From: Deltaproteobacteria bacterium
GTDB taxonomy: Bacteria > Myxococcota_A > Polyangia > Haliangiales > Haliangiaceae
Reading direction: 5' to 3'
Assembly: GCA_029565465.1 (NCBI GenBank)
Contig: JAKQOD010000652.1
Span: 1 to 61,119, forward strand
DNA: 61,119 nucleotides
The stretch's first letter is position 1. Each line of letters begins with the position of its first letter. Below are positions 37,649-51,074 of the stretch, piece by piece. A model generated the notes under the pieces. It saw nothing but the letters and a program-made list of their open reading frames with translations. It searched no databases and was not told the DNA's origin. The position numbers were made by a program, and so were the translations under genes.

Positions 37649-38560
37649 ATGAGCAGTTTTCTGCCAAACGCACCTATCGCGGCTCGCATCTTAAAAGCGC
37701 TTCGAGCGCAACAATCCGCCAAGGTCATCGACTTTTCTGCGTTCAAGCGCGGTCGAGAACAAGCGGAGATGCTCGATCAGTCGATGGTTACGCCCACCGA
37801 ACTTGAGGGATTCTACCCGGGGCATGCGATGTATATCGTCGCGCAAAATTGGGCGTCCATCATGATGGAAACATTAACGGCAATGGAAGAAGCCGCAAAA
37901 TTCGCAGCGCTGATCGGTGCCGCTGACGAAGCTTATATGCCGCAAGGCCCACCCATGAGCCCGATTACGACTTCATGTTTTTCTATGTGGGCGGCGTTTG
38001 ACGCTGCAGTTGGCCTACGCAATGAAACGCTCGGCAGTATTATCCTCCACCTAGGTCAGCACCTGGGAGTCGATGGCACGACGCTTCGGTTGGTTGGCGC
38101 CATGCAAGACTCGGCGATGCGAGTGTATAGCGCCATCAGTGTCGACATGGACGTGGTTAGGCTTCTCGACATTCTCTCCGGGCAAGAACTTGATGCATAC
38201 TGTTCAGCTGGCCGCCGAATTCAGCAACGCGAACTTTGGCTGGTACGCGTGTTACCGCCCGCCCGCGACGGCGAGCTCGCCATCGCGATGACAACGCCTT
38301 ACGTTCTGCAAAACGCCGATGCCCCCGCCTGGCGTGCTTACTTCCAGCGCGCGCTTGGCGCCGCGGCAGCAACACCTGCCAAAACCCAAGCCGCACTAAA
38401 GTTTCGAATCGATTGGCTTGAATACATCTTCGCTGCCTATGCAAGTCACAGTGATAGCGAGGTGTACCTAACAGGAATACCTGATCAACCAGCAAGCTTG
38501 CCGCACTACAGCGACTGCCATCCACTCGCACGATTTGGCCGCGGTCCGAAGAAGAAATAG
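37649..38560 (+). CDS. Hypothetical protein (303 aa), first gene of the defence-island block
   Basis: ATG-initiated coding-like ORF with no motif recognised. Same strand as, and ~100 nt upstream of, the ATPase gene. Confidence 0.55.
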   Translation: MSSFLPNAPIAARILKALRAQQSAKVIDFSAFKRGREQAEMLDQSMVTPTELEGFYPGHAMYIVAQNWASIMMETLTAMEEAAKFAALIGAADEAYMPQGPPMSPITTSCFSMWAAFDAAVGLRNETLGSIILHLGQHLGVDGTTLRLVGAMQDSAMRVYSAISVDMDVVRLLDILSGQELDAYCSAGRRIQQRELWLVRVLPPARDGELAIAMTTPYVLQNADAPAWRAYFQRALGAAAATPAKTQAALKFRIDWLEYIFAAYASHSDSEVYLTGIPDQPASLPHYSDCHPLARFGRGPKKK

Positions 38561-38659
38561 GCCAGCGGCCAAGCGCACCTGCGTCGCTTCCGTCTACCAA
38601 GTTGGCCTGAATCTCCATGGTTTTTGGCCGTACGTTGGCCTATTCTTGGACTGCTCATC

Positions 38660-39748
38660 ATGCCGGCCTTTCTCGAAGAAATTTCAATTCGCGGCTACAA
38701 GTCGATTCGCGAGTTGCAGTCCTTCAAAATGCTGGAGGGCCTGAACGTCCTCATCGGCGCCAATGGTTCGGGGAAGACCAACTTCATCCGGTTTTTTGAG
38801 TTGCTTGGCAACATCATCGATCCGAACAAAGGACTGCAGAACTACGTTCGCGCGCGCGGCGGCGCAGATGCCTTGTTGTTTCGCGGGATGAAGGTGACGC
38901 CAACCCTCAGTGCGAGTCTGAAGATTGCACGAAACAGCTACAATTTTACGCTCAAGGCCGCCGACGATCGTTCGCTCTTCTTTGAAAAAGAAGCCGCTCC
39001 GTTTGATGGGCCGATGTATGGCGTGACGAGTAACAATTTTGGCGGCGGTCACCTCGAAAGCAAGCTTGTACAGCGCGACAGTCCTTCAGCCAGCGAACTT
39101 TGGATCAGGACGACTCTCGCGCGTTGGCGTGTCCATCATTTCCACGACACGTCACCGGCGGCTGCGGTGATGGGGCGATGCAATATTGTAGATTCTGCCT
39201 CTTTGCAAGATAACGCCGGGAACCTCGCGGCTTTTTTGCTCGACATCGAAAAAAATCATCCCGCGCATTTTGCTCGCATCGTTGAAACGGTGCGGCAAGT
39301 GGCACCGTTCTTCGGCAGGTTTGAGCTGCGAGATGTGGGCGCTGGCCAAACTCAGTTGTTGTGGAAAGATCGCTACTCGGACCTAATCTATTATCCGCAC
39401 CAATTATCCGATGGCACGCTTCGTTACATCTGCTTAGCAACGCTGCTGCTGCAACCGAATCCACCCGAGATGTTGGTTATCGACGAACCTGAGCTGGGCC
39501 TGCACCCTTTTGCGATCAAGCTGCTGGCTAGCCTGCTGCAAGAAACCGCCCAAACGTGTCAACTCATCGTCTCGACGCAATCGTCGCTTTTGCTGGATGA
39601 GTTGGCTCCAGAACAAGTCATCGTCGTTAACCAACAAGATGGCGAATCAACATTTCAGCGGCAAGATCCAGCACGACTGGCGGCGTGGTTGCAAGAGTAC
39701 ACGCTCGGTCAACTTTGGGAAAAGAATGAGTTGGGTGGGCTGCCTTGA
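38660..39748 (+). CDS. ABC-type (AAA_15/AAA_21-like) ATPase
   Basis: Start re-picked to the ATG at 38660: MPAFLEEISIRGYKSIRELQSFKMLEGLNVLIGANGSGKTNF (Walker A). LSDGTLRYICLATLL (signature-like). EMLVIDEPELGLHP (Walker B/D-loop). STQS (H-loop-like region). Confidence 0.85.
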   Translation: MPAFLEEISIRGYKSIRELQSFKMLEGLNVLIGANGSGKTNFIRFFELLGNIIDPNKGLQNYVRARGGADALLFRGMKVTPTLSASLKIARNSYNFTLKAADDRSLFFEKEAAPFDGPMYGVTSNNFGGGHLESKLVQRDSPSASELWIRTTLARWRVHHFHDTSPAAAVMGRCNIVDSASLQDNAGNLAAFLLDIEKNHPAHFARIVETVRQVAPFFGRFELRDVGAGQTQLLWKDRYSDLIYYPHQLSDGTLRYICLATLLLQPNPPEMLVIDEPELGLHPFAIKLLASLLQETAQTCQLIVSTQSSLLLDELAPEQVIVVNQQDGESTFQRQDPARLAAWLQEYTLGQLWEKNELGGLP

Positions 39749-40437
39749 ATAGCGAGTGGGTTCGACTCTATGTCACGGTGGAAGGCCCCACCGAAAAGAA
39801 GTTTGCCGATGAAACCTTGTGCCCTCACTTGGCGCTTTTTTCCATCGATCTTCGCCCGCGCATCGTGATCACGAACCGCAAGCTGGGCGCCCGCGGCGGC
39901 GGCCAATACTATGAAACGATTCAAGGCGACCTCGCGCGGCTGATGCGTGAAGACGCTAGCAGTAAAGCGCGCTTTTCAACCATGGTCGATTTGTATGCAC
40001 TTCCGCTTCACTTTCCTGGCAAGGCCGACGCGGAGCGCATGACCGAAGCGGTAACGAAGGTTGAACACTTGGAGGCTGCTTGGGCGACAGCCGTCGCAGA
40101 CCGCCGATTTATTCCGTTCATCCAGCTTCATGAATTCGAAGCGCTGCTTTATTGCGATTTAGCGGAGCTAGAAAAGCGCATCGAAAACGCCACCGCTGGC
40201 ATCACCGCGCTCCGTCGAGAAGTTGGCCACTTGGCGCCGGAGGCGATCAACGAAGGCCCTACTACTGCACCGAGTAAGCGCATCATTCGCCATGTGCCTG
40301 CTTATCAATTCAACAAGCCACGTGTTGGGGCCCCCGCCGCATCCGCAATCGGTCTTTCCGTGCTGCGCCAGAAGTGCCCACATTTCAGTCAATGGATCAC
40401 AAAGCTTGAGAACCTAGGTTCGCCGATCCAGGCGTAG
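39745..40437 (+). CDS. DUF4276-like protein (Toprim-like acidic motifs?)
   Basis: TTG start overlapping the ATPase stop (TTGA). RLYVTVEGPTEKKFADE near the N-terminus, MVDLYALP, FIPFIQLHEFEALLYCD. This matches my recollection of DUF4276, which is typically paired with an AAA ATPase. Confidence 0.7.
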   Translation: MNSEWVRLYVTVEGPTEKKFADETLCPHLALFSIDLRPRIVITNRKLGARGGGQYYETIQGDLARLMREDASSKARFSTMVDLYALPLHFPGKADAERMTEAVTKVEHLEAAWATAVADRRFIPFIQLHEFEALLYCDLAELEKRIENATAGITALRREVGHLAPEAINEGPTTAPSKRIIRHVPAYQFNKPRVGAPAASAIGLSVLRQKCPHFSQWITKLENLGSPIQA

Positions 40438-40831: not shown

Positions 40832-43261
40832 ATGGACAAACGGGGGCTTTCTGAACGGGACATTTGTACCAAGTTCATTACGCCTGCGTTGGAGCGAGCG
40901 GGTTGGGACGTGCACACCCAGCTACGTGAAGAAGTAAATCTTACCGATGGCCGCATCATCGTGCGCGGTAAGCTCGTCACGCGCGGCAAGAACAAGCGCG
41001 CCGACTATGTGTTGTATTGGAAGCCGGGCATTCCGCTAGCGGTGGTAGAAGCCAAGGACAACACGCATCCAATCTCGGCCGGCATTCAGCAAGCACTTGA
41101 ATACGCAGATATGCTCAACGTGCCGTTTGCGATTTCATCCAACGGCGATGGCTTTGTGTTGCACGATCGCAGCGGCCAAGCCGCCAAGATGGAAACCTCG
41201 CTCGCGCTTGATGAGTTCCCAAGCCCCGACGAGTTGTGGCTACGCTACCGGCGTTGGAAAGGCCTCGAAACCGTCGACGCGCCCGCACTTACGCAGGACT
41301 ACTATTCCGACGGCAGTGGCAAAAGCCCACGTTACTATCAGATGAACGCCATCAACCGCGTGATTGAAGCGGTGGCAAGCGGTCAAGATCGCTTGCTGCT
41401 TGTGATGGCCACCGGCACCGGCAAAACCTACACCGCGTTTCAAATCATCTGGCGCCTTTGGAAATCCGGCACTAAAAAACGCATCCTGTTTCTCGCTGAT
41501 CGCAACATCTTGGTTGATCAAACCCGCACCAACGACTTCAAGCCGTTTGGTGGCAGCATGACCAAGATCACCAACGCCAAAGCTGATCCGTCGTTCGAGA
41601 TCTATCTCGCGATCTATCAAGCCATCACTGGCAACGACATCAAAGAAGATCTGTTTCGGCAATTTTCGCCAACGTTCTTCGACCTCATTATCGTCGACGA
41701 ATGTCATCGCGGCAGCGCCAAAGACGACTCGGCGTGGCGCGATGTGCTGACCTATTTTTCAGCGGCAACCCAACTGGGCCTCACGGCAACGCCCAAAGAG
41801 ACCACCAGCATTTCAACCAGCAACTACTTCGGCGAACCGGTGTACACCTACTCGCTGCGCCAAGGCATCGACGACGGTTACTTAGCGCCCTACAAAGTTG
41901 TGCGGGTTGACCTCGACAAAGACCTCACCGGTTGGCGTCCCGAAGTTGGCAAAACCGACAAGTTCGGCGAAGAAATCGCCGACCGCGTTTACAACCAGCG
42001 CGACTTTGACCGCAACATCGTGCTTGAAAAGCGCACCGAGCTGGTCGCCAAAAAAGTCACGCAGTTTCTACGCGAAACCAACCCGATGGATAAGACCATC
42101 GTGTTTTGCGAAGACATCGACCACGCTGCGCGCATGCGCCAAGAGTTGGTCAATGCCAATCCAACTCACTGCGCTAAAAACAAAAAGTACGTGATGCAAA
42201 TCACCGGCGACAACGAAGAAGGCAAAGCCGAGCTCGACAACTTCATCATGCCTGAATCGCTGTATCCGGTGATCGCCACCACCAGCAAGCTGATGACCAC
42301 CGGCGTCGACGCCAAAACCTGCAAAGTCATTGTGCTCGATCAGACCATCAAATCGATGACTGAGTTCAAACAGATCATCGGCCGCGGCACTCGCGTCGAA
42401 GAAGACTACGGCAAGCTGTACTTCACGATCATCGATTTTCGCAAAGCCACCGAGCTGTTCGCTGACCCAGATTTCGACGGCGACCCCGTTGTGGTTTACC
42501 AGCCGCCAGTAGACGGAACGCTTGCACCACCCGACGAAGTGCGCGACGCCGATGGCAATCTAATTACAGATCCTGAACTACTTGCCCAAGCGCTGGCCGA
42601 ACGCGAAGCGGCACAGGCTGCAGGAGCACAAACTGCGCTCGCTGGCTCGTCCGACGCCAGCACCTACACCGGCGAACTCAATCGGGATACCCCGGCCCGC
42701 CGCGTGCGGTACATCATCAACGATGTCGAAGTGTCGATCGCGGCCGAGCGCGTGCAGTACTACGGCAACGATGGCCGGCTGATCACTGAATCGTTGCGCG
42801 ACTATTCAAAGAAAACGATTCGCATGCGCTACGCCTCGCTCGATTCGTTCCTCAAAACCTGGACCGCGTCCGACCGAAAACAAGCCATCATCGACGAGCT
42901 GCGCGAGCAAGGCGTGTTCTTCGACGAAATCGCTGACCAAGTGGGTAAAGACTACGCGCCATTTGACTTGGTTTGCCACGTAGCCTTCGACCAACCGCCG
43001 CTAACTCGGCGTGAGCGAGCCAACAACGTGCGCAAGCGCAACTACTTCACCAAATACGGCGACGCCGCCCGCGCCGTGCTCGAAGCCTTGCTCACCAAGT
43101 TTGCCAATGAAAACATGGACGAACTCGACAACATGGCCGTCCTCAAGATCAACCCGCTCGCCGCCATGGGCACGCCAGTCGAACTGGTCAAACGCTTCGG
43201 CACCAAGGCCCAATATCTCGAAGCCATCGCCGAGCTGCAGCTGCAGTTGTTCACAGCGTAG
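40832..43261 (+). CDS. hsdR: Type I restriction enzyme, R subunit
   Basis: Start re-picked to the ATG at 40832: MDKRGLSERDICTKFITPALERAGWD (classic HsdR N-terminus). PRYYQMNAINRV, LLVMATGTGKTYTAFQ (motif I), LIIVDECHRGS (motif II), LGLTATP (III), QIIGRGTR (VI). Confidence 0.92.
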   Translation: MDKRGLSERDICTKFITPALERAGWDVHTQLREEVNLTDGRIIVRGKLVTRGKNKRADYVLYWKPGIPLAVVEAKDNTHPISAGIQQALEYADMLNVPFAISSNGDGFVLHDRSGQAAKMETSLALDEFPSPDELWLRYRRWKGLETVDAPALTQDYYSDGSGKSPRYYQMNAINRVIEAVASGQDRLLLVMATGTGKTYTAFQIIWRLWKSGTKKRILFLADRNILVDQTRTNDFKPFGGSMTKITNAKADPSFEIYLAIYQAITGNDIKEDLFRQFSPTFFDLIIVDECHRGSAKDDSAWRDVLTYFSAATQLGLTATPKETTSISTSNYFGEPVYTYSLRQGIDDGYLAPYKVVRVDLDKDLTGWRPEVGKTDKFGEEIADRVYNQRDFDRNIVLEKRTELVAKKVTQFLRETNPMDKTIVFCEDIDHAARMRQELVNANPTHCAKNKKYVMQITGDNEEGKAELDNFIMPESLYPVIATTSKLMTTGVDAKTCKVIVLDQTIKSMTEFKQIIGRGTRVEEDYGKLYFTIIDFRKATELFADPDFDGDPVVVYQPPVDGTLAPPDEVRDADGNLITDPELLAQALAEREAAQAAGAQTALAGSSDASTYTGELNRDTPARRVRYIINDVEVSIAAERVQYYGNDGRLITESLRDYSKKTIRMRYASLDSFLKTWTASDRKQAIIDELREQGVFFDEIADQVGKDYAPFDLVCHVAFDQPPLTRRERANNVRKRNYFTKYGDAARAVLEALLTKFANENMDELDNMAVLKINPLAAMGTPVELVKRFGTKAQYLEAIAELQLQLFTA

Positions 43262-43325
43262 GCGCACGAGCGAGAATCAGCTTTCGAAGATGGCGCGTCG
43301 ATCGAAGGCGCAGTAAGCTTCGGCC

Positions 43326-44066
43326 GTGGTCTGGAACGCACCCGATAGGCACATTGAGACGTTTGTGCGCAACCCATTGATTCTTGTGGTTGCCGAGGCA
43401 AAGTTCGAACCGCTCCTCAAATTGGATCATCGAATTGCCGATATTCAAGATGCGCTGCGTGGCGCATTTCCGCGGTATCAGCGCGCTCCCATCAAAATGG
43501 TAGACCTTGCCCCCGATGGAATGCTTTCGGTTTTGGACGGAACGGTCCACACCTTCACTTCGTCTGATAGCGCCACTACTTTGAATTTGAGCAACAATTC
43601 ACTCTCGCTTCAAACCCGCGACTATCGCGACCGTGCGTTATTTGCCGAAGCCCTAAAAACCGGTTGGGTCGCCTTAAACGCGGCAATGCCTGGGGTCGTG
43701 CCAACTCGGCTTGGGCTTCGATATATGAATGAGTTGGTCCTCTCGACCATCGCAACGGATCTGAATCGTCAATTGACCTGGTCTGATTTGCTCAACGACT
43801 CATTGCTTGCTAGACCGTTGGGACACGCTCCGAGCGCTGTAGTGCAATCCGAAATACGAGATACTACGGCCAAAGGGGGCAACCTCACGTTCCGCTTCGC
43901 TAATCTACCGGATGGGAAATTTCGTTTAGATTACGATCGGTTCGACGAAGGGGCCTTTGAGCCAAACGATTTGTTTGCAAAGCTCTCGCACTTCGCAGAC
44001 GATATCTACGTGCTGTTCATGGCTAGCATCACCAGTGGCATGCTAGATTGGATGAAGAAGACATGA
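43326..44066 (+). CDS. Uncharacterised protein, TIGR04255-like (from memory)
   Basis: GTG start at 43326. ...FVRNPLILVVAEAKFEP... resembles the N-terminal pattern of TIGR04255-family proteins. No catalytic motif recognised. Confidence 0.6.
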   Translation: MVWNAPDRHIETFVRNPLILVVAEAKFEPLLKLDHRIADIQDALRGAFPRYQRAPIKMVDLAPDGMLSVLDGTVHTFTSSDSATTLNLSNNSLSLQTRDYRDRALFAEALKTGWVALNAAMPGVVPTRLGLRYMNELVLSTIATDLNRQLTWSDLLNDSLLARPLGHAPSAVVQSEIRDTTAKGGNLTFRFANLPDGKFRLDYDRFDEGAFEPNDLFAKLSHFADDIYVLFMASITSGMLDWMKKT

Positions 44067-44338
44067 CGTTACGTGGGCAACAATTGGGCGAACAAGTTGT
44101 TCAGGCACGCTGGATGTCGGCGCAGGACACCTCCGTGCCGCTTACCAACACGCAAGTTGCACAGTTCGCAAGTGGCACCGGCGTGAGTTGCTTTCATCAC
44201 GACTTGATTGCAGTGCCAGCGTTCCTTCGAAAAATCGCAGCGGTTCTCCCGGTGAACGAAGAAGCGGATCGAGCGCTTAACGCTGAGCTTAGCCGCGTCT
44301 ACGCAAACTTTCCGATTCGTAAAATAGTTCGCCGCTAG
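44063..44338 (+). CDS. Small hypothetical protein (91 aa)
   Basis: The ATG at 44063 overlaps the TGA of the preceding gene (ATGA). The track start at 44048 is TTG. Confidence 0.5.
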   Translation: MTLRGQQLGEQVVQARWMSAQDTSVPLTNTQVAQFASGTGVSCFHHDLIAVPAFLRKIAAVLPVNEEADRALNAELSRVYANFPIRKIVRR

Positions 44339-44349
44339 GTATCGATTTC

Positions 44350-44889
44350 ATGCCGGCGACAAACGAGCGATGGCCACCGGTCTATGATGAAAACGATCTC
44401 GAAGGCGCAATCGCTAGCGCACTGCGCCAGATCGGCAAAACGTTCTTCGAACCAACATTGCTCGATGGCTGGTGTCAAGGCGATATCGTCGGTCTAGCTG
44501 GAGCCGTGCCGATCGTTGGCCCGAACGGTGAAGTTAGTGTGCTCGACGTACCCTCATCATATTGGCTATTGCTTGGCAACAGTTGCGATCTCGACAGATC
44601 GCTCGACGAAGTGGCCTGGGCACCCGCCATTCCGCTGCTGCCATGCTCGCTGTTATCGCCACAACGCATAGCCACCATGCAAAGCTATCAAACAGTACGC
44701 ACGTTTTTTGTGCAGAGTTGGGGCGCGGAAACGGGCGACGCGTATGGCGATTTCACACTTATGGCGTCCGTTTCGAGACAGTGGCTTTTGCAACAAAAGC
44801 CCGTCGCGCGACTGCGCCAGGCAAGCTGGACACTGCTGAACGCGTGCTTGGTGCGCTACCTGGCCCGCAGCGACGGGCGCAATGACTAG
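44350..44889 (+). CDS. Hypothetical protein (179 aa)
   Basis: The ATG lies 11 nt after the previous stop. Coding-like (…WCQGDIVGLAG…WLLLGNSCDLDR…AIPLLP…). No family recognised. Confidence 0.6.
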   Translation: MPATNERWPPVYDENDLEGAIASALRQIGKTFFEPTLLDGWCQGDIVGLAGAVPIVGPNGEVSVLDVPSSYWLLLGNSCDLDRSLDEVAWAPAIPLLPCSLLSPQRIATMQSYQTVRTFFVQSWGAETGDAYGDFTLMASVSRQWLLQQKPVARLRQASWTLLNACLVRYLARSDGRND

Positions 44890-44955
44890 CACGGCCACAC
44901 GACTGTAGCCGCCAACCGTAGCGGGGCTGGGCGTTTTTTGCGTAAGCTGCGCGGC

Positions 44956-46404
44956 ATGTCACTCGGTACAACGATCAAAGGCATCCAAGACATCATGCGC
45001 AAAGACGCGGGTGTCGACGGCGACGCGCAGCGGATCAGCCAATTGGTGTGGATGATCTTTCTCAAGGTGTTTGACGACCTTGAAGAGCAGCGCGAACTCG
45101 AAGGCGATTACAAGTCGCCGATTCCGCAGAAGCTGCGCTGGCGCAATTGGGCCAAAGATGCCGAAGGCATCACGGGTGACGCGCTGGCGGACTTCATCAA
45201 CAACGACTTGTTCAAAACGCTCAAAGAGCTACCGGCCACCGGCAAAAATGCCGCGCTTGCAGGCGTTGTGCGCGGCGTGTTTGAAGATGCGTTCAACTAC
45301 ATGAAGTCGGGCACGCTGATTCGCCAAGTGGTGAACAAGCTCAACGAGATTGATTTCAATCGCTCGTCAGACCGCCACGAGTTTGGCGATGTCTACGAAA
45401 AGCTGCTGTCTGACCTGCAAAACGCAGGTAATGCTGGCGAGTTTTATACGCCGCGCGCAGTGACCCAATTCATCGTTGACCAAGTGGACCCGCAGCTCGG
45501 CGAAAAGATCCTCGACCCAGCCTGTGGCACCGGTGGCTTTTTGACCTGTGCCATCGAGCACGTGCGCGGCAAATACGTCAAAACCGCAAAGCAGGAAACC
45601 ACCCTGCAAGACAGCATCTTTGGCGTCGAGAAAAAGCCGCTACCGCACTTGTTGTGCGTGACCAACATGATGTTCCACGGCATCGAAGTGCCGTCGCAGA
45701 TTCGCCACGACAACACGCTGGCGCGGCCACTGCGTGACTACGGCGCCAAAGACAAAGTGGATGTCATTATTACCAATCCGCCGTTTGGTGGCATGGAAGA
45801 AGACGGCATCGAAAACAATTTCCCCGCCGCGTTTCGCACGCGCGAGACTGCCGACTTGTTCTTGGTGTTGCTCATCACCTTGCTCAAGCCCGGCGGCCGC
45901 GCCGCCCTGGTCTTGCCCGATGGCACGCTGTTTGGTGAAGGCATCAAAACCCGCATCAAAGAAAAGCTCCTCGAAGAATGTAACTTGCACACCATTGTGC
46001 GGCTGCCTAAAGGCGTGTTTGCGCCTTACACCGGCATCAAAACCAACTTGTTGTTCTTCACCAAAGGTGAGCCAACCAAACACGTTTGGTTCTACGAACA
46101 CCCGTACCCTGCTGGCGCCAAAAGCTATTCCAAAACCAAGCCCATGCGCATCGATGAGTTTGCGCCCGAGAAAAAGTGGTGGAACAAGCGCAAAGAATCC
46201 GACCAAGCCTGGAAAGTTAGCCTCGCCGACATCCAAGCCCGAGGCTACAACCTCGATTGCAAAAACCCACGCGCCGTCGAAGAAGGCGCTGGCGATCCCG
46301 ACGAGCTTTTGGCTCAGTATCAACTGGCGGTCGCCGAGGCTGCGAAAGTCAGGGAGATGCTGAAGGAGGAATTGCGGAAGGCGATTGAGGGAGGTGGGAA
46401 GTGA
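44956..46404 (+). CDS. hsdM: Type I restriction-modification system, M subunit (N6-adenine DNA methyltransferase)
   Basis: ATG at 44956: MSLGTTIKGIQDIMRKDAGVDGDAQRISQLVWMIFLKVFDD (HsdM N-domain). GEFYTPR, ILDPACGTGGFL (SAM motif I), IITNPPFGG (motif IV). Confidence 0.92.
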   Translation: MSLGTTIKGIQDIMRKDAGVDGDAQRISQLVWMIFLKVFDDLEEQRELEGDYKSPIPQKLRWRNWAKDAEGITGDALADFINNDLFKTLKELPATGKNAALAGVVRGVFEDAFNYMKSGTLIRQVVNKLNEIDFNRSSDRHEFGDVYEKLLSDLQNAGNAGEFYTPRAVTQFIVDQVDPQLGEKILDPACGTGGFLTCAIEHVRGKYVKTAKQETTLQDSIFGVEKKPLPHLLCVTNMMFHGIEVPSQIRHDNTLARPLRDYGAKDKVDVIITNPPFGGMEEDGIENNFPAAFRTRETADLFLVLLITLLKPGGRAALVLPDGTLFGEGIKTRIKEKLLEECNLHTIVRLPKGVFAPYTGIKTNLLFFTKGEPTKHVWFYEHPYPAGAKSYSKTKPMRIDEFAPEKKWWNKRKESDQAWKVSLADIQARGYNLDCKNPRAVEEGAGDPDELLAQYQLAVAEAAKVREMLKEELRKAIEGGGK

Positions 46405-47939
46405 GCTCGATCGATGCCTTCATCGACTTGATAGCGCAGAGCAACGACGTTTCCATTGTTCGGCGGGCAATGCACGACATTGCGATACTAGGACGCCTGA
46501 CAAATGACGCAGACGCACAACGGCCGATCGCCACGCAAGGCAGTGCAGGCGACCCCGCAATTCCTGAAGACTGGCAGTGGAGTGTGCTCGAAGACGTTAC
46601 AACCCGTGTGCATTACGGCTACACCGCGTCGGCGTCACGAACTAAGTCCGACGCAAAAATGCTGCGCATCACCGATATTCAAGATGACCGCGTTAATTGG
46701 GACACCGTTCCATACTGCGATATCGATGCAGAACGCGCGGAAAATTATTCGCTCGAGAACGGCGACCTGCTTATCGCAAGAACTGGCGGTACGATAGGCA
46801 AGACGTACCTAGCGGAAGGCATCGATTGCCGCGCGGTCTTTGCCTCGTATTTAATTCGCGCCACGCCGAACCATCGTGTGTTGCCGCGGTTTTTGAAGGC
46901 CTATACCTCAACGTCGCTATACTGGCAGCAGCTCTACGCTGGAGCCGCCGGGACTGGCCAACCTAACGTAAATGCTTCCACGCTAAAAAAGCTACGCATC
47001 CCCCTGCCGCCGCTTGCCGAGCAGAAGCGCATCGTGGCCAAAGTCGATCAGCTCATGGCCTTGTGCGATGAATTAGAAGCAAAACAAAACGCACAGCGCC
47101 AACTCGGCACTCGCCTCACCCGCTCCGCCCTCGACGCCCTCACAACAGCCACCACCCCCGACGAATTCACCACCGCCTGGCACCGAATTTGGCAGAACTT
47201 TGAAACGTTTGTAGCGAAACCCTCCGACGTTAATATTCTGCGTACACTAATTTTGTCATTGGCCGCATCAGGCAAGTTGATAGTCACCCCCAACCAAAGC
47301 AAACGTACGACACTGACGCCAGGATTGGCTTTTTCAATTCCGGATCACTGGCAGTGGACCACGGTTGGCAACGCCGGAGAATTAAAGCTGGGGAGGCAGC
47401 GTGCGCCAAGCAATCACCACGGCTCAAATATGGTGCCGTATCTGCGGGTCGCAAACGTCCATGAAAACCGATTGGCGCTCGATGATATTTTGGAAATGCA
47501 CTTTGAGCCAGAAGAGGCGAAGAGATTTGAACTCAAGCCCATGGATGTTCTCCTAAATGAAGGTCAAAGCTACGAACTGATTGGTCGGCCTGCGCTCTAT
47601 CGAGGAGAAATCCCCGGAGCATGCTTTCAAAACACCCTCATCAGATTCCGCGCACATGAAAACGTGGACCCGGAGTTCGCGCTTATCGTTTTTCGTGCCT
47701 ATTTGCGAATTGGGAGATTCATGAAAGAAGCGCAACAAACGACCAACATCGCGCACCTCAGCGCGGGACGATTGGCGGCGATCGAATTCCCGTTGCCGAC
47801 TCTTATGGAGCAGCGTGCAATCGTGGCCAAAGTTGCTCACCTAGCAAACATCTGCGACGAGCTCGAGGCAAAGTTGCAAAGCACAGAAGAAAAGGGCGGG
47901 AAACTAGCTGCCGCGCTCGTTCAGCAACTAGTTGTATAG
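46401..47939 (+). CDS. hsdS: Type I restriction-modification system, S (specificity) subunit
   Basis: GTG start overlapping the hsdM stop (GTGA). Two target-recognition domains, each followed by a conserved helix: LPPLAEQKRIVAKVDQLMALCDELEAK and LPTLMEQRAIVAKVAHLANICDELEAK. Confidence 0.9.
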   Translation: MSSIDAFIDLIAQSNDVSIVRRAMHDIAILGRLTNDADAQRPIATQGSAGDPAIPEDWQWSVLEDVTTRVHYGYTASASRTKSDAKMLRITDIQDDRVNWDTVPYCDIDAERAENYSLENGDLLIARTGGTIGKTYLAEGIDCRAVFASYLIRATPNHRVLPRFLKAYTSTSLYWQQLYAGAAGTGQPNVNASTLKKLRIPLPPLAEQKRIVAKVDQLMALCDELEAKQNAQRQLGTRLTRSALDALTTATTPDEFTTAWHRIWQNFETFVAKPSDVNILRTLILSLAASGKLIVTPNQSKRTTLTPGLAFSIPDHWQWTTVGNAGELKLGRQRAPSNHHGSNMVPYLRVANVHENRLALDDILEMHFEPEEAKRFELKPMDVLLNEGQSYELIGRPALYRGEIPGACFQNTLIRFRAHENVDPEFALIVFRAYLRIGRFMKEAQQTTNIAHLSAGRLAAIEFPLPTLMEQRAIVAKVAHLANICDELEAKLQSTEEKGGKLAAALVQQLVV

Positions 47940-47981: not shown

Positions 47982-49568
47982 TCATGGCGTTGCAGGTTTA
48001 ACAATATCGATCAGACAGACCGACACCCTGTAGTTACTATTCTTCAATTGTCGTGCCGCGTTCTTCAATACTACACGACTAAAGAACGGCAGCAATCTCG
48101 ACAGTTTTGTCGTCGATGTGTGCCGTGCAATGATAGCGTACACAACTTCAAATTCGGTCGTATCAATCGCTTGCACAAACGCGTCATCGAACTGCGTTGG
48201 CAAGAGCCCGCGCACCTTGGAACGAAAGCTCTCGTCCTCTTGCATACTAGTAGCCGACAGCAATCCCTGCTGGAACAGGTGACTCAACGTACTCGATGAC
48301 GTACCGCGTTTGACATGAATCATTTCCCTTGATGGCGAGTAGAGATCGCAAAACTCAAGCCTACTTCTGCCCCCGCCGTACACGATCGATCGCGCATCAG
48401 CGCACTGGTATCCAAGCTCTTTCTCGATTCGCTTATTGTACTTACCTTCAACTTCTTTGTGTTTAGCCGACGGCAGCGGTTTCTTTACCAATAGTTTATC
48501 GACGGCCTTGTTTACCTTTTGCACAAAGTTGCGCTCTACTTCGAACCACGTGCCGTTCGACAAAATAGACGTATTCACGTCGTCGCTAATTTCGCAATGC
48601 AACGATTTATACAGCGACCATTTCTTCACACAGTCACCATTGCCATCGAAGCCATAAAGATGGCGGCGCTTGAGAAATGCAACGCTAGTCTTGCTGGAGT
48701 CAGCCTCCAGCTCCTGCAGCAGGTCGTCGATTGAAGGATCAGCGCTTAACGTCGTGGGTGGCTGGTCAAACGCAAAGCCCTCAATCTCCTTCCAATTGAT
48801 CACTTCTGGTGGCCCAAGCCACATACCTTTCGTCTCTCGGTCGTTGAGTTTGGCAATCAACTCCGCGTCAAGCGATTCGATTTTTTGGGGATCGAGCACT
48901 TCCGAAATCTGATCAATACCATCGAACTTTTCTTTATATGCTTCCGATTCGAATTGCTGCAGATATAGGCCCAGCAGGAGCGGCAAACTCGATAGCTCCG
49001 TGCGGGCACGAATAGCCAGCGGGCCCTTGCCCACCATAAACACGCCTAACTTTGGATCCGCCGGTTGGCCGCTAATTGCACGTACGACTTCTTGCTCGTA
49101 ATCGATACCAAACTGACGGATTGGCCCGTGTTGAACGGACTGAGTTTGTTTGTGATTCGCAATTGCTTCCATGGATGTCACATTCACTGATCGAATGGCC
49201 GCTTCGGCGATCGAGTTCAGTGTCACGCGAAGCCCAAATTTCTCCTCGGCAACATCTTCACTTAGCAGCGTCCAGCCGTAACCAAACGTAACCGCGAACC
49301 ATCGCCCAGAGTTTTTCACCAATAGGACCGCAGAGTGACTACGATTTTTCAGCGTTGGGAACTTTAGAACATACGGTTTGAACATCGCCGCCCATGACGG
49401 CTCCCTGTCTGCTGCGAGCGCCATATACAACGTACCGATATAATGCTCGCCATCCACTACATCCATCTTCTTCAGGCCAGCTTGGCCTTTTAGGATGTGC
49501 TTGGGGTCAGTACCCTGCTTCACCAAATGAATCGTTAAACCAACCAGCGGCAGCTTCTTCTTCGACAT
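47982..49568 (-). CDS. TIGR04141 / DUF6119-like 'sporadically distributed' protein
   Basis: ATG at 49568, preceded by AGGAGG 7 nt upstream. MSKKKLPLVGLTIHLVKQG..., AVLLVKNSGRWFAVTFGYGWTLL, EKFGLRVTLNS, IRQFGIDYEQEVVRAISG. These match my recollection of the TIGR04141 family. Confidence 0.6.
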   Translation of the reverse strand: MSKKKLPLVGLTIHLVKQGTDPKHILKGQAGLKKMDVVDGEHYIGTLYMALAADREPSWAAMFKPYVLKFPTLKNRSHSAVLLVKNSGRWFAVTFGYGWTLLSEDVAEEKFGLRVTLNSIAEAAIRSVNVTSMEAIANHKQTQSVQHGPIRQFGIDYEQEVVRAISGQPADPKLGVFMVGKGPLAIRARTELSSLPLLLGLYLQQFESEAYKEKFDGIDQISEVLDPQKIESLDAELIAKLNDRETKGMWLGPPEVINWKEIEGFAFDQPPTTLSADPSIDDLLQELEADSSKTSVAFLKRRHLYGFDGNGDCVKKWSLYKSLHCEISDDVNTSILSNGTWFEVERNFVQKVNKAVDKLLVKKPLPSAKHKEVEGKYNKRIEKELGYQCADARSIVYGGGRSRLEFCDLYSPSREMIHVKRGTSSSTLSHLFQQGLLSATSMQEDESFRSKVRGLLPTQFDDAFVQAIDTTEFEVVYAIIARHTSTTKLSRLLPFFSRVVLKNAARQLKNSNYRVSVCLIDIVKPATP

Positions 49569-49685
49569 TGCAAATCCTCCTGTGCCCGCGCGGGAATGTT
49601 GGCCCCGCCCCAAAAGGAGCCTACCAAAGCCGCCACGCGAAGTGTTTGAACTGATTCACGATGCGACCACGCATGGACGAAGGCA

Positions 49686-50162
49686 ATGTTCAGACGTGAA
49701 CGTGAGATCTTCCCACGGCGCCACCAGGATATTTCGCTTGCTAGACCCGCAAATAGGATGAGAGGGTTTGGCGTGGCCAACGGGTTGCCAAAGATTGGGC
49801 GTCGCCTGGATTCGCTGCCAGTTAGGCTCGCGTGGGTGCGAGATCTCGAATTCTTTGAGGGTGCAATTCTGTCGGAACACCAAGCACCGAATGGTGACGT
49901 TTACTTGATGAAATGGTGCGCACAAACCGGTGGCACCACGCGATGGTTAGCAACGCAAGCTGAAGCAGGCGCGATTTCCGCGTATCTCGACGGAAAACGA
50001 AGCATGTTTGATTTGTTGAATACAGACGGCGGATTCTTGGTGGATCAAGTCGACAATCAGATTGTCGCGGTTTGGTCGGTCGGCCTGGCGGAGATTCCAG
50101 AAGCATACCTACCTACACGAAACGCAATGCACGATCCAACACTGCGGCCGGTGCAACTGTAA
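49686..50162 (+). CDS. Hypothetical protein; first gene of a four-gene operon; start uncertain (49686 or 49758)
   Basis: The C-terminal ~110 aa are coding-like ([30 protein letters not shown]...). The stop lies 5 nt before the DUF5131 ATG. Confidence 0.5.
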
Positions 50163-50167
50163 CGCCC

Positions 50168-50971
50168 ATGGCGCAAGGCTCAGGCATCGAATGGACGGAG
50201 TCCACGTGGAATCCGGTGACGGGCTGCAACAAAATCAGCCCGGGCTGCAAGCATTGTTATGCGGAGCGGATGTCGGAGCGGCTGCAAGCGATGGGGCAGC
50301 CGAACTATCGCAATGGGTTTGCGCTGACGCTGCAACCGAAGATGCTGGAGCTACCGCTAGGTTGGAAAAAGCCACAGCGGATCTTTGTGAACTCGATGAG
50401 CGACTTGTTTCACAAAGCGGTGCCAGAGGCGTACATCCAACAGGTGTTTGATGTGATGCGGCGCGCGTATTGGCACCAGTTTCAAGTGTTGACGAAACGA
50501 GCGGAACGAGTGGCGGCGCTGGATGCGCACATTGATTGGCCAGCAAATGTCTGGATGGGCGTAAGCGTGGAAAATGCGGACTACGTTGACCGCATTGAGG
50601 CGTTGCGGTCGACGCGGGCGCACGTGAAGTTTCTCTCGATCGAACCTTTGCTGGGGCCGCTGCCCAAGCTCAAGCTGCGGGGCATTCACTGGGTGATCGT
50701 CGGCGGCGAATCAGGGCCCGGTGCACGGCCAATGCAGCCCGAGTGGGTTGCGGGTATTCGCGAGCAATGCATCAAAGCCAACGTGGCGTTTTTCTTTAAG
50801 CAGTGGGGCGGCACCAACAAGAAAAAGGCTGGCCGGTTGCTTGAAGGCAGAACGTGGGACGAAATGCCGACGAGCCCAGCGGTGGCGAGCATGTCCGGCA
50901 ACGATGTGGATCGAAGGCCGCTGCCCAACCGCGCGCGCCGCACAGTGCGGCTGGCGATGGCGCAGGATTGA
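50168..50971 (+). CDS. DUF5131 (phage Gp37/Gp68) family protein
   Basis: Start re-picked to the ATG at 50168: [33 protein letters not shown] (three-Cys motif at nt 50225-50257). [51 protein letters not shown]. Confidence 0.85.
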
Positions 50972-51074
50972 TTCGTCGACGGTATTGCTTTGGCGGAACG
51001 CCACTCGCGGCGCCGGGCTTACAAGAATTTCAAAACGCTTGCATGGCGGTTTGTGAAAATGCGAGGGTGTGGGC

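What the first reader, a model, noticed from the sequence alone, without database searches (positions are those of the whole stretch)
43326..44889. Three tightly coupled uncharacterised genes nested inside the type I R-M operon, between hsdR and hsdM
**Seen.** hsdR (40832-43261) and hsdM-hsdS (44956-47939) are split by 1.6 kb that carries three same-strand ORFs.
- 43326-44066: 246 aa. Its N-terminus ...FVRNPLILVVAEAKFEP... recalls the unknown-function family TIGR04255.
- 44063-44338: 91 aa. Its ATG overlaps the upstream TGA as ATGA.
- 44350-44889: 179 aa, after an 11-nt gap.

I can find no nuclease, methylase, NTPase or HTH motif in any of them.

**Established precedent.** Accessory immunity genes can sit inside hsd operons. 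The PrrC anticodon nuclease lies inside the EcoprrI hsd locus, is silenced by the R-M complex, and is released when phage attacks the R-M.

**Inference.** The position and the translational coupling make this trio a candidate R-M-guarding or R-M-dependent defence module. I do not recognise it as a described system.
Basis: partly seen in the sequence, partly recalled or inferred. Interest (0 to 1): 0.8.

Follow-up and report, generated by a model that had tools for sequence, protein, structure and literature searches.

The report
Mobile three-gene toxin–antitoxin-like cassette in hsd
The three unknown genes between hsdR and hsdM are a real, self-contained mobile cassette that occurs in many bacteria without any restriction genes, and whose last protein has the fold of CcdB/MazF toxins, so it is most likely a new three-part toxin–antitoxin-type module that landed in the restriction locus rather than a dedicated guard of it.

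Summary
Three tightly coupled same-strand genes (A 246 aa, B 91 aa, C 179 aa) lie between an EcoAI-type hsdR and hsdM-hsdS. All three are under purifying selection (dN/dS 0.07-0.10).

- **B and C** match no Pfam, NCBIfam, PADLOC or PHROG profile.
- **C's fold:** a confident AlphaFold model of C (pLDDT 83) matches almost only CcdB/MazF/Kid/PemK toxins in two structure libraries. No sequence-level link to them is detectable.
- **Conservation:** the A-B-C order recurs in 19 of 20 species-level genomes, mostly Myxococcota.
- **Context elsewhere:** 23 independent loci have no hsdM or hsdS within 10 kb, and their neighbours are mainly housekeeping genes.
- **hsd embedding** is confined to one species-level group.
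- **Allele swap:** within that group, one block (B's C-terminal tail plus most of C) has been exchanged between otherwise near-identical loci. This points to a cognate binding pair.
- **Wider family:** more distant TIGR04255 genes head analogous three-gene arrays.

Best reading: an autonomous tripartite toxin-antitoxin-like module with C as toxin, B as antitoxin and A as an accessory protein of unknown role. A PrrC-like R-M guard is not supported. No toxicity or defence function has been tested.

The parts
43326..44066 (+). Gene A, 246 aa, a TIGR04255 family protein and the first gene of the cassette. Its role and fold are unknown.
   Evidence: NCBIfam TIGR04255 scores 86.1 bits against a cutoff of 30. 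There is no Pfam, PADLOC or PHROG hit. Homologues occupy the same position in 19 of 20 genomes. dN/dS is 0.068. The AF2 model failed at pLDDT 36.
44063..44338 (+). Gene B, 91 aa, the putative antitoxin or adaptor. Its start overlaps A's stop as ATGA. It has a conserved C-terminal motif, AVLPvnEExD....
   Evidence: Read from the sequence. The family alignment is A2. A B-like gene lies immediately upstream of C in every locus. Its last ~20 residues co-vary with the C allele. dN/dS is 0.10. It shows no similarity to MazE or CcdA.
44350..44889 (+). Gene C, 179 aa, the putative toxin or effector with a CcdB/MazF-like fold plus a ~45-residue N-terminal extension. Conserved motifs are ERWPPVYD, CQGD, WLLxN(S/T)CDLDR and CLVRYLARxDGR.
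   Evidence: The AF2 model has pLDDT 83.3 and pTM 0.81. In Foldseek against PDB, 47 of the top 50 hits are CcdB/MazF/Kid/EndoA toxins. PemK-like proteins top the viral library. The family comprises 273 clusters. Invariant residues across 108 sequences are G44, C79, W160, R169, R173 and R177.
44240..44780 (+). Allelic replacement block: B residues ~60-91 plus C residues 1-~143. It is only 52-77% identical at nucleotide level to locus L069, whose flanks are 97-100% identical.
   Evidence: Sliding-window nucleotide identity between the window and L069. Protein alignments. Per-gene identities: hsdR 100%, A 97%, B 84%, C 61%, hsdM 99.4%.
40832..43261 (+). hsdR (EcoAI/FtnUII type, family IB-like). 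This is the upstream flank of the insertion and is context only, not part of the cassette.
   Evidence: Pfam ResIII, HSDR_N and EcoEI_R_C. RefSeq naming of plasmid relatives at 55-62% identity.
44956..47939 (+). hsdM-hsdS, the downstream flank, given as context. hsdS is itself hypervariable between near-identical loci.
   Evidence: Pfam N6_Mtase, HsdM_N and Methylase_S. hsdS is 26-32% identical in L069 and L011 while hsdM is 97-99% identical.
43262..43325 (.). The 64-nt hsdR-A spacer, the left junction of the cassette.
   Evidence: No significant promoter, terminator or RNA structure. No flanking direct repeats. It is 98.6% identical in L069 and 77.5% in L071.
44890..44955 (.). The 66-nt C-hsdM spacer, the right junction of the cassette.
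   Evidence: A T-run follows a weak hairpin, but its folding energy is no better than shuffled sequence, z = 0.65. It is 96% identical in L069 and L070.

Best explanation
The trio is an autonomous, horizontally mobile three-gene module of the toxin-antitoxin type. In one lineage it has inserted at the hsdR|hsdM junction of a type IB-like R-M locus.
- **C is the effector.** It is a highly divergent CcdB/MazF-fold protein. Its conserved N-x-C-D loop and arginine-rich C-terminal helix probably form a new active or target-binding site.
- **B is its cognate neutraliser.** It probably binds C through its C-terminal ~30 residues.
- **A is an accessory third component.** It is a TIGR04255 protein, first in the operon and translationally coupled to B. 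It may be a regulator, a sensor, or a stabiliser of B.

What is shown:
- gene reality
- conserved order and coupling
- independence from hsd
- C's fold
- the co-exchange of B's tail with C

What is inferred:
- toxicity of C
- neutralisation by B
- any role for A

The module may stabilise the defence island or act as an abortive-infection defence, as many toxin-antitoxin modules do. It does not need the R-M system to function.
For: 1. **Fold.** The AF2 model of C is confident, with pLDDT 83 and pTM 0.81. Of the top 50 PDB Foldseek hits, 47 are CcdB/MazF/Kid/EndoA/MoxT toxins, with probability ~1.0 and TM 0.55-0.69 normalised to the target. An independent viral library also puts PemK-like proteins and an endoribonuclease at the top.
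2. **Architecture.** A small B gene ends within about 15 nt of C's start, or overlaps it, in every locus. A-B-C order is kept in 19 of 20 species genomes and in L003, L005, L006 and L038-L041. One genome keeps only B-C, so the pair can persist without A.
3. **Cognate pairing.** Between two loci with 100% identical hsdR and 99.4% identical hsdM, a single block has been swapped. It comprises B's last ~30 codons plus C codons 1-143. B's tail sequence tracks the C allele.
4. **Mobility and independence.** Contexts are unrelated to each other: next to dnaA, hem genes, oxidoreductases or radical-SAM genes. No hsdM or hsdS occurs in 23 loci. Decayed copies exist in L004 and L037.
5. **Landing site.** hsdR normally abuts hsdM at 18-115 nt in this family. 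One plasmid has an IS1380 element plus a PIN-domain protein and an adjacent small gene at that junction. Published cases describe toxin-antitoxin pairs inside type I clusters (PMC13515534; PMC5499597).
6. **Wider pattern.** Distant TIGR04255 genes head analogous three-gene arrays. Their third protein shares colinear motifs with C, and hhalign gives E = 8e-5 and 61% probability over 76 columns.
Against: - No sequence-level link to MazF/Kid/EndoA was found: hhalign probability is 0.13, and there is no Pfam PemK or CcdB hit. The toxin assignment therefore rests on fold alone, with Foldseek E-values of only about 1e-3.
- By inspection of the sequence against the model's strand pattern, the MazF catalytic Arg/Thr positions do not appear conserved. 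This is inference; no structural superposition was available.
- C is acidic, with pI 4.6 and about 5 across the family.
- B has no recognisable DNA-binding domain and no similarity to MazE or CcdA.
- The family is absent from 72,556 plasmids and 2.9 million viral contigs. That is unusual for classical addiction modules, though Myxococcota are under-represented in those collections.
- A's fold and role are undetermined.
- No experiment supports toxicity.
Confidence: 0.55

Rival explanations
1. The trio is a PrrC-like R-M guard. It is held silent by the HsdRMS complex and released when a phage anti-restriction protein attacks the complex, or it otherwise depends on the R-M system.
For: - It is embedded on the same strand between hsdR and hsdM, inside a defence island that also holds the HEC-01 pair and a DUF6119 gene.
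- The embedding persists across several cassette alleles within one species-level group.
- Genes embedded in type I R-M systems are often defence genes (bioRxiv 10.1101/2024.01.29.577857).
Against: - None of 23 independent loci has hsdM or hsdS nearby.
- The neighbours of 24 loci are mostly housekeeping genes.
- The sister allele at about 80% identity is followed by an oxidoreductase rather than hsdM.
- PrrC, by contrast, is found almost exclusively embedded in type I R-M systems.
- No ABC-ATPase or anticodon-nuclease domain is present, and no PrrC model hit appeared in PADLOC.
- A module that functions in at least 23 genomes without hsd cannot require hsd.
Confidence: 0.06
2. The trio is a stand-alone anti-phage abortive-infection system. 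A (TIGR04255) senses a phage cue and frees or activates effector C from inhibitor B. Its biological role is immunity rather than addiction or stabilisation.
For: - It shares all the architecture evidence of the best explanation.
- In the window it sits in a defence island.
- The B-tail/C block shows rapid allelic turnover next to a hypervariable hsdS, which fits arms-race dynamics.
- The cassette is more diverged than its flank: dS is 1.5 for A against 0.9 for hsdR.
- Payne et al. find that systems discovered by embedding show weak defence-island association and that a single embedded instance is worth testing.
- Two neighbours in other loci match DUF499 and mad6 defence models.
Against: - There is no general defence-island enrichment in 24 loci.
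- There is no PADLOC hit, even though that database includes the candidate PDC and HEC models.
- No phage-challenge data exist.
- One genome retains B-C without A.
Confidence: 0.25
3. The trio is not a toxin system at all. C is a non-toxic small barrel protein, for example a nucleic-acid- or ligand-binding or Cys-dependent enzyme. It would work with A and B in an unknown accessory physiological pathway, and the fold match to CcdB/MazF would reflect a common SH3-like barrel.
For: - No sequence-level homology to MazF or CcdB was found.
- The family has an invariant Cys79 and an acidic pI.
- Neighbours are mainly housekeeping genes.
- The family is absent from plasmids and viral contigs.
- Foldseek E-values are only about 1e-3.
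Against: - The top-hit list is homogeneous, 47 of 50 being toxins of one superfamily in PDB, with PemK-like proteins also topping BFVD. It is not a mix of SH3-like barrels.
- The distribution is patchy, with no conserved neighbourhood. Decayed copies and allelic block exchange are typical of selfish or defence modules rather than metabolic operons.
Confidence: 0.14

Closest known systems
CcdA-CcdB, MazE-MazF and Kis-Kid (PemIK) type II toxin-antitoxin modules
   Same: C has the predicted CcdB/MazF fold. A small upstream partner gene is tightly coupled to it. The partner's C-terminal tail co-varies with the toxin allele, as expected if the tail wraps the toxin. The distribution is patchy and mobile.
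   Different: There is no detectable sequence similarity for C or B. C is about 65 residues longer, with a conserved N-terminal extension and an N-x-C-D loop. The MazF catalytic dyad is not evident. B lacks an AbrB or RHH DNA-binding domain. A third gene (TIGR04255) is almost always present. The family is not found on plasmids or phages.
Tripartite type II modules with the third gene first, such as omega-epsilon-zeta and paaR-paaA-parE (from general knowledge)
   Same: The gene order is accessory, then antitoxin, then toxin. The antitoxin lacks its own DNA-binding domain, which leaves a role for a separate first-gene product.
   Different: A is a 246-aa acidic protein with no HTH or RHH signature. 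Omega and PaaR are small DNA-binding repressors. The toxin folds also differ: zeta is a kinase and ParE is RelE-like.
Toxin-antitoxin-chaperone (TAC) systems with a SecB-like chaperone (from general knowledge)
   Same: It has three components, in which the third protein could be needed to keep the antitoxin functional.
   Different: A shows no similarity to SecB: hhalign probability is 0.8% and there is no Pfam hit. The gene order also differs, since the chaperone comes last in TAC.
PrrC anticodon nuclease in the EcoprrI hsd locus
   Same: It is an accessory gene set embedded on the same strand within a type I R-M locus.
   Different: PrrC is an ABC-ATPase fused to a nuclease and is almost exclusively hsd-embedded. 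This trio has neither domain and lies outside hsd in all 23 independent loci.
Toxin-antitoxin pairs and candidate systems embedded in type I R-M clusters (Casimicrobium huifangae RM-C, PMC13515534; PIN-like toxins, PMC5499597; PDC/HEC candidates of Payne et al., bioRxiv 10.1101/2024.01.29.577857)
   Same: This is the same phenomenon: small toxin-type modules inserted between hsd genes, in arrangements not conserved between related species. The Pseudanabaena plasmid shows an IS element plus a PIN-domain protein and an adjacent small gene at the identical hsdR|hsdM junction.
   Different: The protein families differ, and none of the PADLOC candidate models matches A, B or C.

Membership tests
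TIGR04255 family (protein A) | Score at or above the curated NCBIfam cutoff (30 bits) over the full-length model | tested here: met
   86.1 bits, E = 3.3e-24, covering model positions 3-249 of 252. The upstream genes in eight other loci also pass at 57-95 bits, as does the one in L003.
CcdB/MazF (PemK) toxin superfamily (protein C) | SH3-like barrel with a C-terminal helix, the CcdB/Kid fold | tested here: met
   The AF2 model has pLDDT 83.3. In Foldseek against PDB, 47 of the top 50 hits are CcdB/MazF/Kid/EndoA, with TM 0.55-0.69 normalised to the target and probability ~1.0. PemK-like proteins top BFVD.
CcdB/MazF (PemK) toxin superfamily (protein C) | Sequence-profile membership (Pfam PemK_toxin or CcdB; profile-profile similarity) | tested here: not met
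   No Pfam hit at E <= 1. hhalign of the 108-sequence C profile against MazF/EndoA/Kid gives probability 0.13. The reference sequences were validated against PDB.
CcdB/MazF (PemK) toxin superfamily (protein C) | MazF catalytic Arg/Thr dyad, or CcdB's C-terminal Trp-Gly-Ile gyrase-binding residues | tested here: inconclusive
   No residue-level structural superposition was available. By inspection, no Arg-Pro precedes strand 71-74, no conserved Thr ends strand 90-98, and the C-terminus reads ...ARxDGRxD. The family's invariant residues are instead G44, C79, W160, R169, R173 and R177.
CcdB/MazF (PemK) toxin superfamily (protein C) | Growth inhibition (RNA cleavage or gyrase poisoning) neutralised by the partner | not testable with these tools
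   This needs expression and biochemical assays.
Type II toxin-antitoxin module (B-C) | Two adjacent, co-directional, translationally coupled small genes with conserved pairing | tested here: met
   The gap is 11 nt in the window. B ends within about 15 nt of C's start, or overlaps it, in all loci. B's tail and C are exchanged together.
Type II toxin-antitoxin module (B-C) | Antitoxin carries a DNA-binding domain (HTH, RHH or AbrB) for autoregulation | tested here: not met
   B has no Pfam or NCBIfam domain. It has no similarity to MazE or CcdA. Its N-terminal half is poorly conserved.
Type II toxin-antitoxin module (B-C) | Patchy, horizontally mobile distribution, often on plasmids or prophages | tested here: inconclusive
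   The module is patchy, with unrelated chromosomal contexts in Myxococcota, Gammaproteobacteria and Sulfurovum. It has no match in plasmids or viral contigs.
PrrC-type R-M-dependent guard | Near-exclusive embedding in type I R-M loci | tested here: not met
   None of 23 independent loci has hsdM or hsdS within about 10 kb. Embedding occurs in only one species-level group.
PrrC-type R-M-dependent guard | ABC-ATPase domain fused to an anticodon-nuclease domain | tested here: not met
   A, B and C have no ATPase or nuclease domain and no PrrC hit in Pfam or PADLOC.
PrrC-type R-M-dependent guard | Physical masking by the Hsd complex and activation by a phage anti-restriction factor | not testable with these tools
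   This needs pull-downs and phage challenge with and without hsd.
Toxin-antitoxin-chaperone (TAC) | SecB-like chaperone as the third component | tested here: not met
   hhalign of the A profile against E. coli SecB gives probability 0.8%. The SecB sequence was recalled from memory and not validated. There is no Pfam SecB hit.
Type III toxin-antitoxin (ToxIN/AbiQ; Kid-like toxin with an RNA antitoxin) | Tandem-repeat RNA antitoxin encoded upstream of the toxin | tested here: not met
   No tandem repeats and no Rfam match were found in 43000-45200. B is protein-coding under purifying selection.
Known or candidate defence systems in PADLOC-DB v2.0.0 (including PDC and HEC candidates) | A match to any of the 5027 models | tested here: not met
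   A, B and C match no families at E <= 1.

The most novel reading that the evidence does not exclude
TIGR04255-headed three-gene arrays would form a widespread, undescribed class of tripartite toxin or defence modules. In this reading, TIGR04255 is a generic sensor or regulator. The middle gene is a lineage-specific adaptor or antitoxin. The third gene is a radically diverged MazF/CcdB-fold effector that uses a conserved (S/N)-x-C-(D/E)-L loop and an Arg-rich helix for a new biochemical activity, neither canonical MazF RNase action nor CcdB gyrase poisoning. The window's cassette would be one branch. Its rapid allele swapping beside hsdS would reflect an arms race with phages.
Probability: 0.3. 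Interest if true: 0.65.

Novelty: new variant of a known kind. Interest (0 to 1): 0.45.

Why it matters
- **A testable role for an unstudied family.** TIGR04255 is a curated family with no paper in the held library. This analysis gives it a first testable functional context as the lead gene of a conserved three-gene array.
- **A possible new toxin branch.** It identifies a new, sequence-unrecognisable branch of CcdB/MazF-fold proteins with its own conserved site. If C proves toxic, this adds a new tripartite toxin-antitoxin family and possibly a new toxin activity.
- **A caution on method.** A gene set embedded in a defence system need not depend on that system. Here the hsdR|hsdM junction acts as a landing pad for mobile cargo.
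- **A ready-made experiment.** The natural allele swap of B's tail together with C offers a direct test of cognate specificity.

Tried and rejected
- **Profile searches.** B and C gave nothing in Pfam, NCBIfam, PADLOC or PHROGs. Sequence profiles of A, B and C against PDB gave nothing meaningful.
- **Sequence link from C to MazF.** I thought the motif layout of C resembled PemK/MazF. hhalign against a validated MazF/EndoA/Kid profile rejected a sequence-level link, with probability 0.13.
- **A against SecB, and B against MazE and CcdA.** All were negative.
- **RNA antitoxin (type III).** No tandem repeats or Rfam hits were found.
- **Insertion scars.** There are no flanking direct repeats. GC dips only mildly. 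No promoter or terminator exceeds chance, and the intergenic folds are no better than shuffled sequence.
- **Plasmid and phage carriage.** There are no plasmid hits for A or C and no viral contig hits for C.
- **Loci search with the large alignment.** The 108-sequence alignment was too diverse for the loci search, so I used the 14-sequence alignment instead.
- **Literature.** Searches for TIGR04255 under several aliases found nothing.
Full report
**1. Observation**

- A runs 43326-44066 (246 aa, GTG start).
- B runs 44063-44338 (91 aa). Its ATG overlaps A's TGA as ATGA.
- C runs 44350-44889 (179 aa), after an 11-nt gap.

The flanks are confirmed by Pfam. hsdR (40832-43261) has ResIII, HSDR_N and EcoEI_R_C domains. 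hsdM (44956-46404) has N6_Mtase and HsdM_N. hsdS (46401-47939) has Methylase_S. RefSeq names the plasmid relatives of this hsdR (55-62% identity) 'EcoAI/FtnUII family', which is type IB-like.

A is a TIGR04255 family protein, scoring 86.1 bits against a cutoff of 30. B and C match nothing in Pfam, NCBIfam, PADLOC or PHROGs.

All three are real genes under purifying selection. Against diverged relatives, dN/dS is 0.068 for A, 0.10 for B and 0.081 for C.

**2. The local island**

The hsd locus lies in a variable island from about 37.6 to 52.6 kb. Its contents, in order:
- an unknown 303-aa gene
- a HEC-01A/B pair, AAA_21 ABC-ATPase plus DUF4276 (PADLOC E = 1e-130 and 1e-66)
- hsdR, the trio, then hsdMS
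- a DUF6119/TIGR04141 gene on the minus strand
- DUF5131 and DUF488 genes

The island is flanked by a PfkB kinase on one side and by an ECF sigma factor and GTP cyclohydrolase I on the other. The window contains no tRNA.

**3. What protein C is**

The C family is rare but real.
- A word-indexed search of 5.8 billion proteins found 14 hits.
- An exhaustive profile search of 1.84 billion representatives found 273 clusters at 50% identity. Of these, 120 scored below 1e-30, and nearly all are stand-alone proteins of 176-200 aa.
- Across 108 members the invariant residues are G44, C79, W160, R169, R173 and R177. W8, Q43, D45, W72, N77, D80, R83 and P95 are nearly invariant.
- The conserved motifs are ERWPPVYD, CQGD, WLLxN(S/T)CDLDR and CLVR(Y/F)LARDDGR.

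An AlphaFold2 model built from a 14-sequence alignment is confident, with mean pLDDT 83.3 and pTM 0.81.

Foldseek gave a consistent answer from two libraries.
- **PDB:** 47 of the top 50 matches are CcdB, MazF, Kid, EndoA/YdcE, MoxT or PemK toxins. Probability is ~1.0, TM is 0.55-0.69 normalised to the target, E is about 1e-3, and sequence identity is 7-20%.
- **BFVD viral library:** the top hits are again 'PemK-like protein' and 'Endoribonuclease'.

The model adds a ~45-residue N-terminal extension (helix 14-28) and an extra hairpin to the toxin core.

I suspected a sequence-level resemblance to the PemK/MazF motif layout and tested it. hhalign of the 108-sequence C profile against MazF/EndoA/Kid gave probability 0.13. 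The reference sequences had been validated as exact PDB matches. The relationship is therefore at fold level only.

By inspection the MazF catalytic Arg/Thr positions are not conserved. The family's own conserved loop (N77-x-C79-D80...R83) and its Arg-rich C-terminal helix are the likely functional sites. This is inference.

**4. The trio is a conserved unit that does not depend on hsd**

Genomic contexts of C homologues show the same A-B-C order without hsd genes in L003, L005 and L006.

A scan of one genome per GTDB species found 20 loci. Most are Myxococcota. The others are Spongiibacter, Glaciecola, Sulfurovum and a Steroidobacteraceae MAG.
- HMM searches and NCBIfam show a TIGR04255 gene followed by a B-like gene and then C in 19 of the 20.
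- The one exception (L021, identical to L001) keeps B-C only.
- B's stop lies within about 15 nt of C's start, or overlaps it, in every locus. A-B coupling is similarly tight.

A phmmer search with the window's HsdR, HsdM and HsdS found no HsdM or HsdS within about 10 kb in any of 23 independent loci. One locus had a weak helicase hit.

I also surveyed 136 neighbour proteins within 5 kb of 24 independent trios.
- Most are housekeeping genes: AcrB, DnaB, DnaA, RNA polymerase beta-prime, alanine racemase, M16 peptidases and TetR regulators.
- Three are phage-type integrases and one is a transposase.
- Few match defence models: DUF499 twice, mad6 twice, plus generic kinase and helicase matches.

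C has no relative in 2.9 million viral contigs. Neither A nor C has a relative in 72,556 plasmids.

**5. Where the hsd embedding does hold, and a mosaic allele**

The hsdR-[A B C]-hsdM arrangement recurs in L007-L011 and L069-L072. All of these have hsdR at least 92% identical to the window's, so they form one species-level group.

The nearest sister allele (L012-L017: A ~80%, B 85%, C 78%) is followed by a pyridine-nucleotide-disulphide oxidoreductase rather than hsdM.

Within the embedded group, L069 is revealing:

| Gene | Identity to window |
|---|---|
| HEC-01 | 97% |
| hsdR | 100% |
| A | 97% |
| B | 84% |
| C | 61% |
| hsdM | 99.4% |

Nucleotide identity is 97-100% up to about position 44240. 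It drops to 52-77% from 44240 to 44780, then returns to 87-98%. The replaced block is B residues ~60-91 plus C residues 1-~143.

B's differences cluster in its last ~20 residues: 'ALNAELSRVYANFPIRKIV' against 'RMDKQLSGAYRDIPVRKII'. They track the C allele, while all of C's family-invariant motifs are retained.

Co-exchange of B's tail with C is what a cognate binding pair would show. It is the strongest in-silico support here for a direct B-C interaction.

The cassette is also more diverged than its flank. dS is 1.5 for A against 0.9 for hsdR in the L071 comparison. hsdS is swapped independently, at 26-32% identity.

**6. The junction as a landing site**

In related EcoAI-type loci, hsdR is followed directly by hsdM. 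The gaps are 18, 114 and 72 nt.

In a Pseudanabaena plasmid the same junction carries an IS1380 transposase plus a PIN-domain protein and a small adjacent gene.

Published work describes similar cases.
- A putative toxin-antitoxin pair lies between hsdS and hsdR in Casimicrobium huifangae (PMC13515534).

In the window I found no flanking repeats and only a mild GC dip. No promoter, terminator or RNA structure exceeded chance. The mechanism of insertion and the transcriptional organisation therefore remain open.

**7. A wider architecture**

A metagenome scan with the A alignment returned 27 TIGR04255 loci.
- The four with at least 32% identity to A are followed by B and C.
- The distant ones (28% or less) are not followed by B or C family members.
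- Seven of the nine distant loci with enough downstream sequence still show a same-strand three-gene array (two of the seven, L055 and L056, are near-identical). These are L047, L048, L055, L056, L059, L060 and L063. Each has TIGR04255 (239-272 aa), then a middle gene (95-247 aa), then a third gene (198-294 aa).
- The third proteins carry motifs colinear with C: (C)xQGD-I/L, h-h-h-S-Q-x-C-(D/E)-L, hhP(I/V), FY(L/I)P and hVD(F/Y)xQI.
- hhalign of the C profile against four of these gives E = 8.3e-5 and probability 61% over 76 core columns. None has a Pfam hit.

Taken together with the shared synteny, the window's trio appears to be one branch of a broader 'TIGR04255 + X + C-like' family. I rate this as likely but not proven.

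**8. Protein A**

No fold could be assigned.
- The permitted three-row alignment gave pLDDT 36.
- There is no PDB relative by profile and no similarity to SecB.
- No paper in the held library mentions the family.

**9. Mechanism and confidence**

My best explanation is an autonomous tripartite toxin-antitoxin-type module.
- C is the effector, a CcdB/MazF fold with a new conserved site.
- B neutralises it through its C-terminal tail.
- A is an accessory first gene. By analogy with regulator-first tripartite modules such as omega-epsilon-zeta or paaR-paaA-parE (general knowledge), it may be a regulator, a sensor, or a stabiliser of B.

My confidence differs by claim:
- that the cassette is autonomous and not R-M-dependent: about 0.85
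- that B-C is a toxin-antitoxin pair: about 0.55
- any specific role for A: low

A defence role through abortive infection is compatible with all of this and is not excluded. Payne et al. show that embedded genes are often defence genes even when they have weak defence-island association. They also report that HEC-01 itself gave no protection in their assay.

The PrrC-like guard model is contradicted by the distribution. PrrC is almost exclusively hsd-embedded, whereas this trio is almost always outside hsd.

A type III arrangement with an RNA antitoxin is excluded.

**10. Limits**
- The toxin assignment rests on one AF2 model and on Foldseek E-values near 1e-3, although the hit lists are strikingly homogeneous.
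- No structural superposition was available for mapping residues.
- C is acidic, with pI 4.6.
- B has no DNA-binding domain.
- The family is absent from plasmids and phages.
- Nothing has been tested experimentally.

**11. Verdict**

The 'R-M-guarding or R-M-dependent' part is not.

In novelty terms this is a new variant of a known kind: a tripartite toxin-antitoxin-like module with a CcdB/MazF-fold effector. Interest is moderate at 0.45. It would rise if the TIGR04255-headed triads prove to be a general new class with a new toxin activity.

Noticed in passing
window 38624-40437 (+): This is a HEC-01A/B pair: an AAA_21-type ABC ATPase plus DUF4276 (a TOPRIM-like protein according to Payne et al.), immediately upstream of hsdR. 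PADLOC E-values are 1e-130 and 1e-66. HEC-01 is a candidate defence system that gave no protection in its original assay. It is conserved with the hsd locus in L007, L008 and L069.
   Followed up: partly
window 47982-49613 (-): This is a DUF6119/TIGR04141 'sporadically distributed' protein (543 aa, E = 1e-131) lying convergent to hsdS. It has no PADLOC hit, and no paper mentions DUF6119. Its L011 counterpart is only 62% identical while hsdM is 97% identical, so it is another fast-turnover gene at this island.
   Followed up: partly
window 46401-47939 (+), compared with L011 4044-5627 and L069 7977-8414: hsdS is only 26-32% identical between loci whose hsdR and hsdM are 97-100% identical. The specificity subunit is being swapped in the same population that swaps the B-tail/C block.
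   Followed up: partly
window 43640-43880 (within gene A): A second, smaller mosaic patch lies here. Nucleotide identity to L069 drops to 85-93% inside an otherwise 97-100% identical gene A, which suggests a separate short recombination tract.
   Followed up: no
window 50072-51989 (+): Adjacent DUF5131 (299 aa, E = 2e-104) and DUF488 (306 aa, with an N-terminal extension) genes lie at the right edge of the island. Both are uncharacterised families and may be further island cargo.
   Followed up: no
window 37649-38560 (+): This is a 303-aa ORF (called as 263 aa in L007 and L008) with no family match, at the left edge of the island between the PfkB kinase and HEC-01A.
   Followed up: no
window 33464-36070 (-) and 57214-60135 (-): Two very large proteins rich in DUF4215 repeats, with cadherin-like, C-type lectin and LTD domains, bracket the region. 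From memory (not checked here), Pfam describes DUF4215 as a Myxococcus cysteine-rich repeat. They hint at the host lineage, which fits the C family being mostly myxobacterial.
   Followed up: no
L004 7432-8369 (4.98-Mb genome contig): This is a decayed copy of the trio: an A fragment of 84 aa, B, and an internally deleted C of 122 aa. It sits in a cluster of polymorphic-toxin immunity-type genes (Imm11, Tai4, AHH, DUF6880) beside a DDE transposase.
   Followed up: partly
L067 (Pseudanabaena galeata plasmid pPg_02) 8560-10725: An IS1380 transposase plus a PIN-domain protein and a small upstream gene are inserted at exactly the hsdR|hsdM junction of a related EcoAI-type system.
   Followed up: yes
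L048 4796-5539 (+): In one distant TIGR04255 triad, part of the middle protein reads by eye like an Xre-type HTH followed by an MbcA/ParS-like antitoxin C-terminal region ('...GVTRQAISAWQRR...RTPADLIENGQFDKARYY...'). Pfam did not detect it at E <= 1, so this impression is unverified.
   Followed up: no
L026 10755-10994, and L038 5874-6113: A short extra C-like fragment (79 aa, E ~1e-8) lies about 200 nt downstream of the intact C gene. It may be a remnant of a former allele left by cassette exchange.
   Followed up: no
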